This document shows positions 51,768-55,757 of a stretch of DNA of 56,522 nt, piece after piece. The number at the start of each line of letters is the position of its first letter. Position 1 is the stretch's first letter. This DNA is from Thermoplasmatota archaeon (GTDB lineage Archaea; Thermoplasmatota; Poseidoniia; Poseidoniales; Thalassarchaeaceae): NCBI GenBank assembly GCA_036154155.1, contig JAYZLP010000049.1:1-56522 (forward strand), in the 5' to 3' direction. The notes beneath the pieces are model-generated. The model did no database searches, was not told where the DNA came from, and saw only the letters and a program-made list of their open reading frames with translations. The position numbers and the translations under genes were made by a program.

Positions 51768-54047
51768 CTACTTTCTATTGCCTTTTCCCTGCTTTCTTCG
51801 CATACCTTTCAGCTTTGAAATCAGGTCGCTAGCTTCTGACTTCGTCACCTCTTCCTCTGTAGCAAGGTCAGCAATTGCGAGTGTATCTGACATCGATATT
51901 CCCAATTGCTCGGACATGTTCCTAATCAATTCCATCTGTGGTTCCGTAGCAGGCATTGAGGAGTTGGAATCCCTCATCTTTCCGATCAACTCACTAGCAG
52001 TACCCTCACGGCCACCTGAAAGCTCGCTCAAATCACTGACCCCGACAAGCGACAAGGCATCGGAAACAGACATTCCAGACTTCTCAATTAGTGACATGAG
52101 GTAACTCATCTGTTTCTCACTGGCCGGAGGGCCTCCGTTGGTTTTCGACAATTCAGTAAGTGTACCAATTAGTTCGCTGGCCTCTTCTCCACTGAGACTC
52201 TCGATTTCCCTGTCCCCCAGAAGGGATTTGACCACATCTTCATCAAGCCCAGTAATCCTACTCTCGATGAATGATTTTTGCTTGGGCGTGGGTGTCCTCC
52301 TGCGGTATTCAATTGCCTTGTTATGGGCTTCCTTGAAGTCTCCCGAGAAGTCCTCCCAGATTGAAACTGCGTCAGTAGTTCCCATTTCAATACCATCCAA
52401 GCTAGCCTCCATTTTCGATGTGAATGAGGCGGATAGAATTTCCATCCCTCCGGCCTTGGATCCGTAAATAGGAGCCACATCTAACCAGAGTACCCTACCG
52501 CTGACCGTTGGAACCAAAGAACCACTGTCATTCTCCACATATCCCCTGTCCTGGATTCTCTGAACGATGCTGACATATGTCGAAGGTCTACCAATCCCAG
52601 CAGTTTTCATCTGTTTCACTATAGAACTCTCTGAGAACCTTCGTGGTGGCTTTGTCTCATCAATAGTTAGTAGTGGGTTTTCATCCCCCTCGTCTAGTTT
52701 CCACTCGGAACCAACCTGTAAATCGAACTTAGGTTGGCTTCTCCGGGGGTCCGGCAAAAATTCGGAGGAGGCCTCCTCCCATCCCGAATGTACAAGCCAG
52801 GACGCTGTTCCGGCCAATTCCTGTTCGATACCATCTACAGATGCCCGCAAGTCTCTCCTTTCCCTAATTGAGTCCGACATCTGACTAGAGGCAAAGCGAC
52901 TCCAAACTAATCTATACAGCCTCTTGTGGTCGGCCTCAACTCCGTCGACTTCCTCAGACGCTGGGGAAGTAGGCCTAATCGCCTCGTGAGCGTCCTGCAC
53001 ATTCGACGAGCCCTTTTTCGCATCAGCTCCAAGTGAGCCAGGACCTAGGAAGTCTTCTCCATACTTCTCCTTGATCAGTTCCTTGACCGCGTTTCTCGCT
53101 GACTCACTCGTCCTTGTTGAGTCAGTCCTGATGTATGTGATATGCCCGGCCTGGTATAGATCGGATGCGATTTTACTTGTTTTCCCCATAGACCACCCGA
53201 GTGAAGAACTGGCAGCCTGTAGGAGAGTATCGGTAGTAAAAGGGGCAGGGGGCTTCCTCCTATTCTTCCCATCCCTGATGGAAACTACCCTCAATATTCC
53301 TGAATCCGCAATGGCTCTATGAACTGCCTCGGCATGTTCACCATCGAACGTTCTATCGGGGAAATGTTTTCCATCGTCATCAAACCAGGCGCCCTCCTCT
53401 TCTTTCTCGTGAAATCTAACTTTGAAATTATATCCATCACTGGTTGCACGAACACTGTGGAATGGTATCGGGACATGTGCTTCTCGCTCCAACTCCCTTT
53501 CGACTATGTATCCTAGAGTCGGGGTTTGGACTCTCCCCATCGATTTTAGATTCCAACTCCTCGCGAATTTTGAGCACCTGTATCCTACAAGTCGATCCAT
53601 GAACCTTCGAACCTTTGCCGCATCTACAAGGTTTGAATCGACATCCTTGTGATTGGCAACGGCCTCTTCAACAGCGAGTTTTGTTATTTCATTGAAGGTC
53701 ACTCTTCTGACAATTGGGAACTCAGAGAAGATTATGCTGAGCCTCCAAGCAATGAACTCACCTTCTCTGTCAGGGTCAGTAGCAATGTAAACCTCTTCCA
53801 CGCCCTTACTGTTCGCCTTTCTTATAATCCCAGAAATAATCCCCTCGGCCCTATCAGTCCATTCCCATGGAGGATCAGGCAGTGTAGATCCATCTGATGC
53901 CCACATTGCCTTGGATCCCTGCTTACCGCTTTTTCTAGTGGGAAGGTCCTGAACATGTCCATTGCAGGCTTCTACAATCCAGTCCTTTCCAAGGTACTTC
54001 TTTACTGTCTTTGCCTTGGTTCCCGACTCCAGTATCATTAGCTTCAT
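51768..54047 (-). CDS. topA: DNA topoisomerase IA with C-terminal triple repeat and no Zn ribbons
   Basis: Toprim ILES..KAK and ATDPDREGE, GRVQTP, catalytic ITYIRTDS, AHEAIRPT, GIGRPSTY; start moved to ATG 54047. Confidence 0.95.
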   Translation of the reverse strand: MKLMILESGTKAKTVKKYLGKDWIVEACNGHVQDLPTRKSGKQGSKAMWASDGSTLPDPPWEWTDRAEGIISGIIRKANSKGVEEVYIATDPDREGEFIAWRLSIIFSEFPIVRRVTFNEITKLAVEEAVANHKDVDSNLVDAAKVRRFMDRLVGYRCSKFARSWNLKSMGRVQTPTLGYIVERELEREAHVPIPFHSVRATSDGYNFKVRFHEKEEEGAWFDDDGKHFPDRTFDGEHAEAVHRAIADSGILRVVSIRDGKNRRKPPAPFTTDTLLQAASSSLGWSMGKTSKIASDLYQAGHITYIRTDSTRTSESARNAVKELIKEKYGEDFLGPGSLGADAKKGSSNVQDAHEAIRPTSPASEEVDGVEADHKRLYRLVWSRFASSQMSDSIRERRDLRASVDGIEQELAGTASWLVHSGWEEASSEFLPDPRRSQPKFDLQVGSEWKLDEGDENPLLTIDETKPPRRFSESSIVKQMKTAGIGRPSTYVSIVQRIQDRGYVENDSGSLVPTVSGRVLWLDVAPIYGSKAGGMEILSASFTSKMEASLDGIEMGTTDAVSIWEDFSGDFKEAHNKAIEYRRRTPTPKQKSFIESRITGLDEDVVKSLLGDREIESLSGEEASELIGTLTELSKTNGGPPASEKQMSYLMSLIEKSGMSVSDALSLVGVSDLSELSGGREGTASELIGKMRDSNSSMPATEPQMELIRNMSEQLGISMSDTLAIADLATEEEVTKSEASDLISKLKGMRRKQGKGNRK

Positions 54048-54111
54048 GATTTCACAACCTATCCCCAATTCGAATCGAGTACTACGTTTCCATCGGGCCA
54101 AGTGAGACCCG

Positions 54112-54117
54112 TATAAA
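54112..54117 (-). promoter_or_regulatory. Putative TATA box for topA (TTTATA on the minus strand)
   Basis: Only canonical TATA hexamer in the intergenic region; about 65-70 nt upstream of the topA ATG. Confidence 0.5.
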
Positions 54118-54141
54118 CATGAGTGAGCACAGTTCGTTCCA

Positions 54142-54179
54142 ACGCGCGCGCGTGCATGTGTGTGTGACGCGCGCGCGTA
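54142..54179. repeat. Alternating purine-pyrimidine tract containing two identical palindromes ACGCGCGCGCGT (Z-DNA/cruciform-prone)
   Basis: ACGCGCGCGCGT at 54142-54153, spacer GCATGTGTGTGTG, ACGCGCGCGCGT at 54167-54178. Confidence 0.9.
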
Positions 54180-54192
54180 AGGAGACGACTAA

Positions 54193-54600
54193 TTACGAGA
54201 CCAATCTTGACACATTTTCATCCCATATTTCATCGGATCCGGGACCTCCGCAGCCAAGACAGCCCGGATATCCAGCACGAGCTAGATGCATTGCAACTTC
54301 TGAAAGATCATTCCAGAGTTTTCCAATTTCATTCGATTCTGATTTTATCCAACATGTCTCCATTGCAGGCTCATTAATTCCAATCATAAACTCGATCTTA
54401 CCATCGCAATCATAGAAAATCTCGTCTATGGTTCCAGAATTCACTGTTGGCTCTGTGATTATCGAGGGAATCTCATCTGAAATTCCTAGAATCAATAGTT
54501 TAGCAGAATCAAAGCATGAATCTGGCACATATAGAGCCCCACCCGACGTCCTAAGTAGCCTTCTCGCCGCTTCGTACATAGACGGGGGCCAATCGTCCAT
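54193..54600 (-). CDS. Hypothetical protein with a C-terminal CxxC motif (GYPGCLGCGG)
   Basis: 135-aa ORF; TTCAAG box 29 nt upstream of its ATG. Confidence 0.68.
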   Translation of the reverse strand: MDDWPPSMYEAARRLLRTSGGALYVPDSCFDSAKLLILGISDEIPSIITEPTVNSGTIDEIFYDCDGKIEFMIGINEPAMETCWIKSESNEIGKLWNDLSEVAMHLARAGYPGCLGCGGPGSDEIWDENVSRLVS

Positions 54601-54623
54601 GTGGGCGCGTGGGGTACGTAACT

Positions 54624-54630
54624 CTTGAAG
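54624..54630. promoter_or_regulatory. Putative bidirectional TATA-like box CTTGAAG
   Basis: Reads TTGAAG 29 nt before ATG 54654 (+) and TTCAAG 29 nt before ATG 54600 (-). Confidence 0.5.
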
Positions 54631-54653
54631 GGTATAGCATCGCGGCTCAGTTC

Positions 54654-55757
54654 ATGGGGATTGGATGGAGCATGTTTGCTCGTCCGGTAATTAGCCGCAT
54701 GGATTCAGAGAGGGCCCATGGACTAGTCATCAAATCCCTTTCGGGTTTCGGACAGTCATCTGTAGGACTTAGGACGCTCAATACACTATACCAGTCACCA
54801 GAGCTTCCAACCCATGTGTTTGGTAGGCTTTTCAGACACCCATTAGGTCTTGCAGCAGGAATGGACAAGGGAGCATCGGCACTTTCTGCATGGCCTGCTA
54901 TGGGCTTCTCCTGGGTAGAGTATGGCGGTATCACGCGGTTCCCTCAGGATGGGAACCCGAAACCTAGGATGTTTCGAGCAGATGCTGAACAAGCGCTAGT
55001 AAACAGCATGGGGTTCAATAATCCTGGGGCATCTTCAATCAGGGATCAGCTGATTCAGAGAAGAGCAACGGGTAAGTGGCCAAATGTCCCTGTCGCTGCA
55101 AACATTGGAAGGTCGAAGAAGGTGGACAATGAACAGGCCCCCGCCGATTATTCTGCGACGCTCGAAACTCTTTGGGATCATGCTGACATATTCGTACTCA
55201 ATATTTCATCACCCAATACCCCGGGTCTCAGAGATTTGCACGAAGACACTAGCCTAAGCTCAGTTCTGAAGGCATGCAATTCGGTCAAGGAAATGAAGGG
55301 CGGGGGAAAGCCCATGCTTCTCAAACTGTCCCCAGATGCTTCTGATGAGGAATTGCGCTCATCCTCTGAAGAGGCCCTAAGAAACGGAATTGACGGCTTC
55401 GTTGCTACCAATACCACACTGAGGAGGCCAGTACCGAAGAATACGAAGTCACGCCACGCCTTTGCTCAGAATGGCGGCGTCTCAGGCAGGCCACTTCAAG
55501 AGAGGTCACTAGAGGTCGTCTCTATGCTGTACGAGTCAACTAATGGCAAGGTCCCAATCGTCGGTGTGGGCGGCATAGACTCGCCAGATTCCGCTTGGAA
55601 CTCACTGACTTCCGGAGCCTCACTGCTGCAGTTGTATTCCGCTTTGGTTTTCAGGGGTCCATCTGTGGTTTCTGACATAGTAAGAGGCCTGAGGGCCCGA
55701 GTCAGGGAGAATGGATTCTCTGGAGTAGAAGAGGCCGTCGGCTACAATAACTCCTGA
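54654..55757 (+). CDS. pyrD: Quinone-dependent dihydroorotate dehydrogenase (class 2)
   Basis: E.AH, PLGLAAGMDK, Q.GNPKPRMFR, NSMGFNN.G, NISSPNTPGLR, KLSPD, TNTT, GGVSG.PL. Confidence 0.95.
   Translation: MGIGWSMFARPVISRMDSERAHGLVIKSLSGFGQSSVGLRTLNTLYQSPELPTHVFGRLFRHPLGLAAGMDKGASALSAWPAMGFSWVEYGGITRFPQDGNPKPRMFRADAEQALVNSMGFNNPGASSIRDQLIQRRATGKWPNVPVAANIGRSKKVDNEQAPADYSATLETLWDHADIFVLNISSPNTPGLRDLHEDTSLSSVLKACNSVKEMKGGGKPMLLKLSPDASDEELRSSSEEALRNGIDGFVATNTTLRRPVPKNTKSRHAFAQNGGVSGRPLQERSLEVVSMLYESTNGKVPIVGVGGIDSPDSAWNSLTSGASLLQLYSALVFRGPSVVSDIVRGLRARVRENGFSGVEEAVGYNNS

What the first reader, a model, noticed from the sequence alone, without database searches (positions are those of the whole stretch)
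54112..54192. Z-DNA/cruciform-prone element directly upstream of the topA promoter: candidate supercoiling-sensing switch
Seen: ACGCGCGCGCGTGCATGTGTGTGTG (54142-54166, 25 bp of perfect purine-pyrimidine alternation), one phase break, then ACGCGCGCGCGTA (54167-54179). The two 12-mers are identical palindromes, so they are both direct and inverted repeats (12-bp stem, 13-nt loop). I saw nothing comparable elsewhere in the 56 kb. The tract starts about 25 bp upstream of a TTTATA box that precedes topA. Established: (CG)n and (CA/TG)n tracts flip to Z-DNA, and inverted repeats extrude cruciforms, under negative supercoiling; Topo IA relaxes negative supercoils and is homeostatically regulated in bacteria; Thermoplasmatota generally encode gyrase. 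Inference: a DNA-structure-based feedback sensor for topA expression. Alternatives are a protein- or histone-positioning site, or an RNA hairpin at the 3' end of the upstream gene.
Basis: partly seen in the sequence, partly recalled or inferred. Interest (0 to 1): 0.85.

Follow-up and report, generated by a model that had tools for sequence, protein, structure and literature searches.

The report
Conserved Z-DNA-prone tract upstream of archaeal topA
A 38-bp stretch of strictly alternating CG/CA bases sits 24 bp upstream of the TATA box of the topoisomerase I gene in a marine archaeon, is unique in that genome and is kept at the same place in about a hundred related species, which makes it a strong, testable candidate for a DNA-shape sensor of supercoiling.

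Summary
Window 54142-54166 is a 25-bp perfect purine-pyrimidine alternation, and 54167-54179 is a second 13-bp block. Both hold the palindromic 12-mer ACGCGCGCGCGT. It is the longest such run, the only (CG)5 and the only (TG)5 in the whole 1.30-Mb genome. Two independent DNA runs contain it unchanged.

topA lies on the minus strand (51768-54047). The tract ends 24 bp upstream of its TATA box (54117-54112).

In 82 of 123 topA loci of the family (6 genera), a CG-rich tract lies directly upstream of a fixed TTG-N21-23-TTTATA anchor. It alternates at 86% of steps, against 51% in the flanks. By a Z-propensity ranking, 95 of 123 loci hold a window better than anything else in this genome.

The sequence and length of the tract change between lineages, and the 12-bp cruciform arms are not kept. 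The alternation is kept. The tract also stays with topA where the upstream gene is absent.

Best reading: a conserved promoter-upstream element selected for Z-DNA-prone alternation, probably a supercoiling-responsive module. That function is inferred, not shown. A B-form protein operator remains a serious rival.

One genus carries a similar tract upstream of orc1/cdc6.

The parts
54142..54166 (.). TATA-proximal block of the tract. It is 25 bp of perfect purine-pyrimidine alternation, made of (CG)5 plus a CA/TG run, and contains the palindromic 12-mer at 54142-54153.
   Evidence: longest R/Y run in the window and in the 1.30-Mb genome; best Z-propensity window in the genome.
54167..54179 (.). 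TATA-distal block. It is a 13-bp alternating run holding the second copy of ACGCGCGCGCGT (54167-54178), out of phase with the first block by one step.
   Evidence: Present in subgroup A of the genus (L001-L007) and absent as such from subgroup B.
54140..54142 (-). TTG (read on the minus strand) at the proximal edge of the tract. It is a fixed anchor 21-23 nt (22 here) upstream of TTTATA.
   Evidence: TTG-N21-23-TTTATA found in 82 of 123 topA loci (g1 17/17, g12 14/14, g6 19/19, g4 11/11, g10 20/23, g13 1/2).
54118..54141 (-). 24-bp spacer between tract and TATA. Its sequence varies except for the last 7 nt, ACTCATG (54124-54118 on the minus strand), which sits where a BRE would.
   Evidence: spacer columns variable in 13 of 23 (subgroup A) and 8 of 23 (subgroup B), with length fixed at 24 (25 in L003 and L021). 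ACTCATGTTTATA occurs once in the genome.
54112..54117 (-). TTTATA, the presumed TATA box of topA.
   Evidence: Conserved in all 82 anchored loci. Its role as TATA box is inferred from sequence and position. No transcription start site was mapped.
54048..54111 (-). Region between TATA and the topA ATG, the presumed initiation region and about 40-nt leader.
   Evidence: TATA-to-ATG distance is 70 nt here and 44-80 nt in other genera.
51768..54047 (-). topA, a type IA DNA topoisomerase of 759 aa.
   Evidence: Pfam Topoisom_bac 1.9e-91 and Toprim 1.9e-13; orthologs in relatives.
54193..54600 (-). Conserved 135-aa gene of unknown function, with the C-terminal motif GYPGCxGCGGPG. Its stop codon lies 13 nt before the tract.
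   Evidence: (no Pfam). Model pLDDT 86.8. No specific fold match.

Best explanation
The tract is a conserved cis-element of the topA promoter region in one family of Poseidoniales (marine group II archaea). What selection keeps is not a fixed word but a property: a CG-rich, strictly alternating pyrimidine-purine run of about 18 to 50 bp or more. In six genera its edge sits at a fixed distance, TTG plus 21-23 nt, from the TATA box.

Such DNA is the most easily converted to left-handed Z-DNA by negative superhelical stress. The most likely mechanism is as follows. When unconstrained negative supercoiling rises, through too little Topo I, gyrase excess, or the negative supercoils left behind RNA polymerases leaving the topA promoter, the tract flips from B to Z. 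It absorbs about 5 turns. This changes what the adjacent BRE/TATA region offers to TBP/TFB or to a bound factor, so topA transcription is coupled to superhelical state.

Shown: the anatomy, the uniqueness in the genome, the conservation, the fixed spacing, and that alternation rather than sequence is conserved.

Inferred: Z-DNA formation in vivo, the sign of the effect on transcription, and homeostasis.
For: 1. Uniqueness. It is the longest R/Y run, the only (CG)5 and the only (TG)5 in 1.30 Mb, and the best of 1.29 million windows in a Z-propensity ranking. CGCG is under-represented genome-wide (observed/expected 0.78). A survey reports Z-DNA-promoting patterns as generally suppressed in prokaryotes (PMC4060949, abstract and passages).

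2. Conservation within the genus. All 17 of the 17 genus loci examined carry the tract. In the 22 genomes of the genus, every R/Y run of 21 nt or more is the topA tract (11 genomes, 25-27 nt). The only other runs of 19 nt or more are 8 runs of 19-20 nt.

3. Conservation across the family. In 82 of 123 loci the 24 nt upstream of the TTG anchor alternate at 1622 of 1886 steps (86%) with GC 82%. The spacer alternates at 51% and the region downstream of TATA at 51%. There are 58 distinct proximal 24-mers. In 95 of 123 loci a 24-bp window scores better than the runner-up of the whole G000 genome. This includes loci in AT-rich surroundings (37-42% GC).

4. The property is conserved rather than the word. 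Subgroup A has 38 nt with two 12-mers, subgroup B has a single 25-bp alternating block, and genus g6 has composite tracts of about 50 nt or more. In subgroup B, 5 of 7 variable tract columns are transition-only. In the flanks 4 of 37 are (Fisher p = 0.002). Tract columns vary less than flank columns: 3 of 38 against 29 of 63 in subgroup A (p = 5e-5), and 7 of 25 against 37 of 63 in subgroup B (p = 0.017).

5. The tract belongs to topA, not to the upstream gene. In L024 the upstream neighbour is a divergent 373-aa ORF and the tract, spacer and TATA are kept. Many other g10 loci show no trace of the 135-aa gene's conserved C-terminal coding sequence within the 190 nt upstream, and also keep them.

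6. Gyrase is encoded, so negative supercoiling is expected. The gyrB upstream region has no such tract.

7. A rough calculation with recalled parameters gives a critical superhelical density of about -0.032 to -0.034 for the 24-bp blocks, which is in the physiological range.
Against: - No experiment or read-level data shows Z-DNA, a transcription start site, or any supercoiling response.
- The TATA-proximal edge (GCGCGCGCGTTG) and the 5' edge (CTCGCG) are nearly invariant in the genus, and the spacing to TATA is fixed. These are also the hallmarks of a sequence-specific protein site.
- The transition bias could be partly mutational, for example CpG to TpG/CpA decay of an ancestral (CG)n. It is not seen in subgroup A, where there are 1 transition-only and 2 transversion columns.
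- Several lineages interrupt the alternation with phase breaks (subgroup A members L004-L007, genus g12).
- Five genera show no clear tract at the threshold used: g8 0 of 5, g11 0 of 3, g2 0 of 2, g13 0 of 2, g7 0 of 10, although g7 is borderline at 17.9-20.1. The element is therefore dispensable.
- In genera g5, g7 and g9 the tract sits in a different arrangement relative to the TTTAT motif.
- In other genera alternating runs are not unique to topA. G094 had 32 and G151 49 forward-strand matches of a 16-nt Y/R pattern, and the G094 topA tract was not among the matches listed. That listing was truncated, with 90 matches not shown.
- One RNA-library contig (174 nt, 54061-54234) spans the tract, so it may be transcribed.
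- The sign of regulation needed for homeostasis does not follow from the anatomy.
Confidence: 0.45

Rival explanations
1. The tract is a B-form operator or upstream activating site. A sequence- or shape-specific transcription factor binds the CG tract, with conserved edges CTCGCG...GCGCGTTG, at a fixed distance from BRE/TATA. It activates or represses topA, and in genus g6 also orc1/cdc6. Z-DNA plays no part.
For: - The proximal edge and the TTG anchor are near-invariant, with fixed spacing to TATA in 82 of 123 loci.
- The two palindromic 12-mers in subgroup A would suit a dimeric binder.
- In 23 of 24 g6 cdc6-upstream regions read, a similar tract with similar flanks (ctCACGC...GCGCGC-TGCA) precedes orc1/cdc6. 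That looks like a small regulon.
- The sister family has a classical palindrome, ACAGATAC-TATA-GTATCTGT, at the equivalent place.
Against: - Tract length ranges from about 18 to 50 bp or more, and its inner sequence turns over (58 distinct 24-mers in 82 loci), while alternation is kept at 86%. That is unusual for a fixed-length operator.
- The 12-mer pair is not conserved in subgroup B.
- Spacing to TATA differs between the topA tract (24 bp) and the g6 cdc6 tract (7 nt).
- No candidate factor was found. The adjacent conserved 135-aa protein shows no helix-turn-helix or other DNA-binding fold (Foldseek: nothing at E <= 0.001; VIA best Z 6.5, generic alpha/beta). That is weak evidence only.
Confidence: 0.3
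2. The tract acts at the RNA level. It is transcribed as the 3' end of the upstream gene or as part of a bicistronic RNA, and forms a GC-rich hairpin that terminates, stabilises or processes the transcript.
For: - The tract starts 5-17 nt after the stop codon of the co-directional 135-aa gene in the genus. In g6 the cdc6 tract likewise follows the stop of the diphthamide-synthesis gene.
- All orthologous tracts can fold as RNA hairpins of -12 to -29 kcal/mol. In the window the 153-nt stretch gives -57.2 kcal/mol, z -3.6.
- One contig of an RNA library covers 54061-54234, across the stop codon, tract, TATA and leader.
Against: - The tract is retained with the same spacing to TATA where topA's upstream neighbour is divergent (L024) and in many g10 loci that show no trace of the 135-aa gene upstream. 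It is anchored to TATA, not to the stop codon: the stop-to-tract distance varies from 5 to 17 nt while tract-to-TATA is fixed.
- No T-run follows the hairpin. That archaeal intrinsic terminators are oligo-T tracts is my recollection, not a tool result.
- Any alternating C/G/U run is self-complementary, so hairpin potential is not independent evidence. Z-scores against dinucleotide shuffles are near 0 in subgroup B.
- The two variable arm-end columns in subgroup A are not compensated.
- Rfam gave only chance-level matches, best 19.7 bits against a gathering threshold of 85.
- The RNA contig is single, and DNA carry-over in the library cannot be excluded.
Confidence: 0.1
3. The tract is a cruciform switch. 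The two identical palindromic 12-mers extrude a cruciform under negative supercoiling, and this, rather than Z-DNA, is the sensed structure.
For: In the window the arms form a perfect 12-bp stem with a 13-nt loop.
Against: - The arm pair is confined to subgroup A (7 of 17 genus loci). Subgroup B and most other genera lack a comparable inverted repeat.
- In L004-L006 the arm ends change without compensation.
- By recall, (CG)n adopts Z-DNA in preference to a cruciform, and a 13-nt loop is unfavourable for extrusion.
Confidence: 0.05
4. The tract has no function. It is a neutral dinucleotide microsatellite or an assembly artefact.
For: Dinucleotide repeats arise by slippage, and tract length varies between lineages.
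Against: - Two DNA runs of different studies hold it unchanged.
- It is kept at the orthologous place in 95 of 123 species-level genomes spanning topA identities down to about 50%, in genomes with very short intergenic regions.
- Tract columns vary far less than flank columns.
Confidence: 0.02

Closest known systems
[quoted passage not shown]
   Same: Both are archaeal promoters with an alternating purine-pyrimidine element near the TATA box, in gyrase-containing archaea, linked to supercoiling-dependent expression.
   Different: I saw only the title, in the reference lists of two papers. The paper itself is not held. The detail that the box is about 11 bp and lies at the TATA region is recalled. 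Here the tract is 25+13 bp, much richer in CG, ends 24 bp upstream of TATA, controls a topoisomerase gene rather than a rhodopsin gene, and is documented by phylogenetic conservation, not by experiment.
Supercoiling-sensitive promoters of bacterial topA and gyrA/gyrB (homeostatic control: Menzel & Gellert 1983; mycobacterial topoI autoregulation, PMC4770202; Streptomyces topA, PMC5055605)
   Same: The logic is the same: expression of a topoisomerase gene is coupled to superhelical state.
   Different: By recall, supercoiling sensitivity in those bacterial promoters lies in core-promoter features such as the -10 element, discriminator and spacer, not in a Z-DNA tract. I saw these papers only as citations or search listings. 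The system here is an archaeal TBP/TFB promoter.
Engineered (CG)n tracts used as in-vivo reporters of transcription-driven negative supercoiling upstream of promoters in E. coli plasmids (Rahmouni & Wells 1989; recalled, not looked up)
   Same: Both are (CG)n-type tracts of similar length placed upstream of a promoter, where the twin-domain model predicts negative supercoils. Z formation depends on topA activity.
   Different: Those tracts were artificial inserts. This one is natural, conserved, and sits at the topA gene itself.
Eukaryotic promoter 'flipons' (Z-DNA-forming CG/TG repeats near transcription start sites; concept in PMC11293857, seen as search listing and abstract start)
   Same: Both are promoter-proximal alternating CG/TG tracts proposed to switch conformation with transcription-generated torsion.
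   Different: Eukaryotic cases involve nucleosomes, remodelers and Z-alpha readers. No histone fold and no Z-alpha domain (where the control genomes gave no signal either) were found here.

Membership tests
Z-DNA-forming sequence (flipon) | Alternating pyrimidine-purine run of about 12 bp or more, dominated by CG and CA/TG steps | tested here: met
   25-bp plus 13-bp runs made of (CG)5, CA/TG steps and (CG)5. Best Z-propensity window of the genome (recalled energies).
Z-DNA-forming sequence (flipon) | B-to-Z transition under physiological negative superhelical density, shown by 2D gels, antibody or Z-alpha binding, or chemical probing | not testable with these tools
   Only a rough calculation with recalled parameters: critical superhelical density about -0.032 to -0.034.
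Z-DNA-forming sequence (flipon) | The alternation itself, not the exact sequence, is what is conserved | tested here: met
   86% alternating steps over 58 distinct 24-mers, against 51% in the flanks. Transition-only variation in 5 of 7 tract columns against 4 of 37 flank columns in subgroup B. Not seen in subgroup A.
Supercoiling-homeostatic topoisomerase promoter | Transcription of the topoisomerase gene changes with superhelical density | not testable with these tools
   No expression data under altered supercoiling exist for this uncultured lineage. RNA contigs show only that parts of topA occur in an RNA library.
Cruciform-forming inverted repeat | Inverted repeat with a short loop, maintained across relatives | tested here: not met
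   Present in the window (12-bp stem, 13-nt loop). The arm pair is absent from subgroup B of the same genus and from most other genera.
Intrinsic terminator or 3'-end RNA hairpin of the upstream gene | Hairpin tied to the 3' end of a co-directional gene and followed by a T-run | tested here: not met
   No T-run follows. The tract is kept where the upstream neighbour is divergent. Spacing is fixed to TATA, not to the stop codon.
Known RNA families (Rfam 15) | Match reaching a family's gathering score | tested here: not met
   Best match 19.7 bits against a gathering threshold of 85. All 8 matches had E >= 0.34.
Dispersed repeat (REP/MITE/CRISPR-like) | Several copies in the genome | tested here: not met
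   The 12-mer, (CG)5 and flank motifs occur only here in G000.
Transcription-factor operator | Fixed-length motif with conserved bases at fixed distance from the core promoter, and a cognate binding protein | tested here: inconclusive
   The edges and the spacing are conserved, but length and inner sequence are not. No binder was identified. The neighbouring 135-aa protein gave no DNA-binding fold match.
Halobacterium bop-type RY box | Short R/Y alternation at the TATA region of a supercoiling-stimulated archaeal promoter | tested here: inconclusive
   R/Y alternation near an archaeal TATA box is met. Position (24 bp upstream) and length differ from what I recall of bop. The defining paper could not be read.

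The most novel reading that the evidence does not exclude
Poseidoniales carry a lineage-wide, protein-independent DNA-conformation switch. It is a Z-DNA 'flipon' placed at a fixed distance from the TATA box. It senses unconstrained negative supercoiling and sets transcription of topoisomerase I, and in one genus also of the replication initiator orc1/cdc6. That would make supercoiling homeostasis in these archaea hard-wired into DNA structure.
Probability: 0.33. Interest if true: 0.9.

Novelty: new variant of a known kind. Interest (0 to 1): 0.78.

Why it matters
Whether Z-DNA has any selected regulatory role in prokaryotes is an old open question. [quoted passage not shown]

Here one tract per genome is kept against that trend, at the one gene whose product removes the negative supercoils that drive the B-Z transition. 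It persists across roughly a hundred species-level genomes of an abundant marine archaeal order.

This gives a concrete, short, clonable sequence and natural variants: alternation-preserving changes, phase breaks, and lineages that lost it. With these, a structural supercoil sensor can be tested in vitro and in a gyrase-containing model archaeon.

A 2024 review of archaeal DNA-topology regulation does not mention Z-DNA at all (0 occurrences). My searches found no paper that links a Z-DNA tract to a topA promoter.

Tried and rejected
**Rfam.** A scan of 53900-54700 at E <= 10 gave only chance-level microRNA-like matches.

**Repeat family.** The 12-mer, (CG)5, ACTCATGTTTATA, GCGCGTTG[GT]A and TTTATACGGG each occur only at this locus in G000.

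**gyrB upstream region in G000.** It has a TTTAAA box and no alternating tract.

**The neighbouring 135-aa protein as a possible Z-DNA or DNA binder.**
- No Pfam family.
- The Atlas gave nothing above 0.77.
- AF2 model pLDDT 86.8.
- Foldseek against PDB found nothing at E <= 0.001.
- VIA wide gave a best Z of 6.5, generic alpha/beta.
- So there is no support for a DNA-binding fold, though weak or missing matches prove nothing.

**Z-alpha and histones.** The Z-alpha (PF02295) search of G000 found nothing, but nothing matched in the control genomes either, so it is uninformative. The histone fold (PF00808) was not found in G000, which is 92.8% complete.

**S60 metric.** The summed R/Y runs in 60 nt proved noisy, with 1.6% of control windows at 18 or above, so I replaced it with the energy ranking.

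**Hairpin z-scores.** Scores against dinucleotide shuffles are uninformative for CG repeats.

**16-nt Y/R pattern in five genomes of other genera.** The matches were many and the listing was truncated (90 not shown), so per-genome uniqueness outside the genus could not be established.

**RNA runs.** Only contigs were available, so no transcript ends or strand could be read. RNA run X18 covers parts of topA only, and X19 gave the single intergenic contig. Parts without cover say nothing.

**Other limits.**
- Supplementary files of papers were not consulted and may hold per-genome Z-DNA maps, for example for the bioRxiv survey.
- Yang et al. 1996 could not be read.
Full report
**What is in the sequence**

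On the plus strand, 54142-54166 reads ACGCGCGCGCGTGCATGTGTGTGTG, 25 bp of perfect purine-pyrimidine alternation. After one phase break, 54167-54179 reads ACGCGCGCGCGTA. The two 12-mers are identical palindromes. As single-stranded DNA the stretch folds into a 12-bp stem with a 13-nt loop (-23.9 kcal/mol, z -4.5).

The genes around it are all relevant on the minus strand:
- topA is 51768-54047 (Toprim plus Topoisom_bac).
- A conserved 135-aa ORF without a Pfam family is 54193-54600.
- pyrD (DHO_dh) runs divergently from 54609.

Read on the minus strand, the order is:
- stop codon of the 135-aa gene;
- 13 nt;
- the 38-nt tract;
- TTG;
- 22 nt ending in ACTCATG;
- TTTATA (54117-54112);
- about 64 nt;
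- the ATG of topA.

**Is it more than chance?**

In the window the next-longest alternating run is 15 nt.

In the whole assembly (1,296,316 bp, 60 contigs, GC 52.5%) there are 100 runs of 12 nt or more. This is the longest, at 25, and the next are 19, 18, 17 and 16. Of 12 places with (CG)4 or more, only the two in the tract reach (CG)5. The only (CA/TG)5 or longer is here as well.

I ranked all 24-bp windows with a ZHunt-like sum of B-to-Z dinucleotide energies. The energy values are recalled and were used only to rank. The tract scores 12.6, the runner-up 17.6, and the genome mean is 38.0 with sd 4.1. CGCG is among the six most under-represented tetranucleotides (observed/expected 0.78).

**Is it an assembly artefact?**

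Seventeen DNA runs from at least 8 studies hold 88% or more of the sampled words of 53600-54700.

I laid contigs from two of those runs, from different studies. Each covers the whole stretch in one piece, with a single difference at 53940 and none in the tract. Either run could be the source of the assembly. The stronger argument is that more than a hundred other assemblies, including one whose record title indicates a single-cell isolate (AG-422-I20), carry homologous tracts.

**Taxon and topoisomerase set**

Record titles of close relatives (topA 95-50% identical) read 'uncultured Candidatus Poseidoniales archaeon' or Euryarchaeota/Methanobacteriota MAGs.

G000 encodes gyrB and gyrA side by side, so negative supercoiling is expected. 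No histone fold was found.

**Conservation in the genus**

The topA protein matched in 57 of 61 relatives.

In the genus, 17 loci were read. Four further genomes gave no topA match and one partial hit was not read. All 17 carry the tract.

They fall into two subgroups:
- Subgroup A (L001-L007) has the 38-nt form with two (CG)5 blocks around a CA run.
- Subgroup B (L008-L016, L018) has a single block, for example CGCGTGTGTGCGCGTGCGCGCGCGT, 25 bp of perfect alternation with no pair of 12-mers.

Both end in GCGCGCGCGT-TG. A spacer follows that varies in sequence but is 24 bp long (25 in L003), and then comes ACTCATG-TTTATA-CGGG.

A pattern search for alternating 19-mers over the 22 genomes of the genus found the topA tract in 11 genomes (runs of 25-27 nt). 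It found only 8 other runs, all of 19-20 nt. The other six topA tracts that were read are broken into runs of 11-18 nt.

**What is constrained**

| Region | Subgroup A: variable columns | Subgroup B: variable columns | Subgroup B: transition-only among variable |
|---|---|---|---|
| Tract | 3 of 38 | 7 of 25 | 5 of 7 |
| Spacer | 13 of 23 | 8 of 23 | 2 of 8 |
| Downstream of TATA | 16 of 40 | 29 of 40 | 2 of 29 |

The tract varies less than its flanks (Fisher p = 5e-5 in A, 0.017 in B). In B its changes are biased to transitions, which preserve alternation (5 of 7 against 4 of 37, p = 0.002). In A there is no such bias, with 1 transition-only and 2 transversion columns.

Two caveats apply. The columns come from related sequences. 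And CG to TG/CA decay is also the expected mutational path of a (CG)n tract.

**Conservation in the family**

A search with the N-terminal 200 aa found topA in 179 of 226 genomes of the family. I fetched 93 further upstream regions. With the first 30 loci, that makes 123.

The anchor TTG-N21-23-TTTATA is present in 82 of them:

| Genus | Loci with anchor |
|---|---|
| g1 | 17 of 17 |
| g12 | 14 of 14 |
| g6 | 19 of 19 |
| g4 | 11 of 11 |
| g10 | 20 of 23 |
| g13 | 1 of 2 |

In those 82 loci, alternation by region is as follows:

| Region | Alternating steps | Share | GC |
|---|---|---|---|
| 24 nt upstream of the anchor | 1622 of 1886 | 86% | 82% |
| Spacer | 882 of 1725 | 51% | 49% |
| 24 nt downstream of TATA | 958 of 1886 | 51% | 55% |
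| Next 24 nt upstream (distal) | 1051 of 1886 | 56% | 54% |

In g6 the distal window alternates at 83%, because tracts there reach 50 nt or more. The 82 loci hold 58 distinct proximal 24-mers.

Using the energy ranking, 95 of 123 upstream regions contain a 24-bp window better than the runner-up of the whole G000 genome:

| Genus | Loci below 17.6 |
|---|---|
| g1 | 17 of 17 |
| g12 | 14 of 14 |
| g6 | 19 of 19 |
| g5 | 13 of 13 |
| g10 | 21 of 23 |
| g4 | 8 of 11 |
| g9 | 2 of 2 |
| g3 | 1 of 1 |
| g7 | 0 of 10 (borderline, 17.9-20.1) |
| g8 | 0 of 5 |
| g11 | 0 of 3 |
| g2 | 0 of 2 |
| g13 | 0 of 2 |
| f2 (one locus) | 0 of 1 |

The tract persists in loci whose 5-kb surroundings are only 37-42% GC. 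In g8 (34% GC) an A-run stands at the same place.

In g5, g7 and g9 a CG tract is present but arranged differently relative to the TTTAT motif.

**Does it belong to topA or to the upstream gene?**

The 135-aa gene precedes topA in 29 of the first 30 loci.

In L024 (genus g10) it is missing. The neighbour is a divergent 373-aa ORF, and the tract, the 24-nt spacer and the TATA box are all kept. Many other g10 loci show no trace of the 135-aa gene's conserved C-terminal coding sequence in the 190 nt upstream, and likewise keep the tract.

The distance from stop codon to tract varies from 5 to 17 nt, while the distance from tract to TATA is fixed. The element is therefore part of the topA promoter region.

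**The sister family**

In 15 loci of family f3 the same 135-aa gene precedes a different, roughly 930-aa type IA topoisomerase, 26-30% identical to this one. No alternating run longer than 10 nt lies in the 260 nt upstream.

Instead, about 11 of the 15, judged by eye, carry a palindrome of the type ACAGATAC-TATA-GTATCTGT.

**RNA**

Every orthologous tract can fold as an RNA hairpin (-12 to -29 kcal/mol). Any alternating C/G/U run can do so, and z-scores against dinucleotide shuffles are near zero in subgroup B.

One 174-nt contig of a metatranscriptome library spans 54061-54234, with two differences. This may mean read-through from the upstream gene, or DNA carry-over. Contigs cannot show ends or strand.

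Rfam gave nothing.

**A second target**

I checked other long alternating runs in two g6 genomes. In both, a CG-rich run of 20-25 nt (25 nt in G091, 20 nt in G094) lies between a diphthamide-synthesis gene and orc1/cdc6 (Pfam Cdc6_lid and AAA_22, plus Cdc6_C in one).

Across the genus, orc1/cdc6 was found in 24 of 27 genomes. Of the 24 upstream regions read, 23 carry at least one alternating run of 8 nt or more, typically two blocks such as CACGCGCGCGCGT-cacag-ACGTGTGTATGCGCGCGCGC. These end 7 nt before an AAATAT motif. L173 has none.

G000 itself has no such tract upstream of its orc1/cdc6.

So in one genus the same kind of element stands at a second DNA-topology-dependent gene, at a different distance from the presumed TATA box. 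This fits either a structural module or a small regulon of a CG-tract-binding factor.

**Mechanism**

Established knowledge, recalled or taken from the passages: (CG)n and (CA/TG)n tracts convert to Z-DNA under negative superhelical stress.

With recalled parameters, the 24-bp blocks would flip at an unconstrained superhelical density of about -0.032 to -0.034 and absorb about 5 turns.

The tract lies upstream of the topA promoter. The twin-domain model places negative supercoils exactly there: behind polymerases leaving that promoter, and, in the divergent g10 arrangement, between two promoters.

My best reading (0.45) is a supercoiling-responsive structural element that tunes topA initiation. 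How the flip is read out is open. Possibilities include:
- eviction or recruitment of a factor;
- a changed helical phase or torsional state at BRE/TATA;
- access of Topo I itself to the junctions.

The main rival (0.30) is a B-form operator. The invariant edges and fixed spacing favour it. The variable length and inner sequence argue against it.

**Literature**

- A 2024 review of archaeal DNA-topology regulation has 0 occurrences of 'Z-DNA' (passages only).
- A 2025 preprint mapping Z-DNA across the tree of life has 0 occurrences of 'topoisomerase' (passages).
- A 2026 review of alternative structures in microbes has 0 occurrences of 'topA' (passages).
- Searches combining Z-DNA, topA, promoter and autoregulation, the RY box and bop, alternating purine-pyrimidine with archaea, promoter and supercoiling, and Poseidoniales with topoisomerase listed no paper describing such an element.
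- The closest precedent, the Halobacterium bop promoter (Yang et al. 1996), I know only from its title in reference lists and from recall.

**Verdict**

- The Z-DNA-prone character and its conservation at topA are shown.
- The cruciform idea is not supported.
- The regulatory function is inferred.

Noticed in passing
window 54193-54600 (-); loci L001-L030 and L032-L047: A 135-aa protein precedes the type IA topoisomerase gene across the order. Its invariant residues include E10, R13, R14, W84, W96, GYPGC114xxC117xG and W126xE128. It has no Pfam family. In the sister family the topoisomerase it precedes is a different, roughly 930-aa type. The confident AF2 model (pLDDT 86.8) has only generic alpha/beta matches (best Z 6.5). 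It may be a topoisomerase partner or a redox CxxC protein.
   Followed up: partly
L170-L194 (genus g6), e.g. L163:1027-1051 and L168:976-995: A second conserved CG-rich alternating tract lies between a diphthamide-synthesis gene and orc1/cdc6, ending 7 nt before an AAATAT motif. It is present in 23 of 24 g6 upstream regions read and absent upstream of orc1/cdc6 in G000 (C60:16236).
   Followed up: partly
L032-L047 (family f3), about 60-90 nt upstream of the topoisomerase start: In about 11 of 15 loci, judged by eye, a near-perfect palindrome of the type ACAGATAC-TATA-GTATCTGT, followed by a conserved GGTTCAAGTAG, occupies the place taken by the CG tract and TATA in the window's family.
   Followed up: no
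L115-L126 (genus g5), L026, L127 (g9), L023, L025 (g2): Other palindromes stand between the CG tract (or its position) and the TTTAT motif upstream of topA: GGGGTTAC-GTA-GTAACCCC in g5, GGGGACGTAGTCCCC in g9 and GACCCTACGGGTC in g2. An ACGTAGTA-like word also occurs in the leader of the window's topA (about 54083-54090).
   Followed up: no
L022, L111-L114 (genus g8): In these AT-rich genomes (locus GC 34%) the CG tract is replaced by an A-run of about 10 nt directly upstream of ACTCACATTTATAC.
   Followed up: no
L012 (G002:C20:68750-71020): The topA ortholog of this genome has one in-frame TAG. This could be a sequencing error, a pseudogene or a recoding event.
   Followed up: no
window 54600-54609: The 135-aa gene (minus strand, start at 54600) and pyrD (plus strand, start called at GTG 54609) are divergent with only 8 bp between the called starts. 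At least one start or promoter must therefore lie inside the other gene.
   Followed up: no
G000 C23:68579-68597; G014:C46:36889; G005:C1:3635: The second-longest alternating run of the genome, ATGTGCGCATATATGTGCG (19 nt), recurs at what appears to be the orthologous place in two sister genomes. By its surroundings it seems to lie inside coding sequence.
   Followed up: no
L024:1343-1500 (G030): Where topA and the divergent 373-aa ORF face away from each other, the tract sits roughly midway. It lies about 26 nt from a TAAATA-like motif on one side and 24 nt from TTTATA on the other. That is the position where divergent transcription would concentrate negative supercoils.
   Followed up: no
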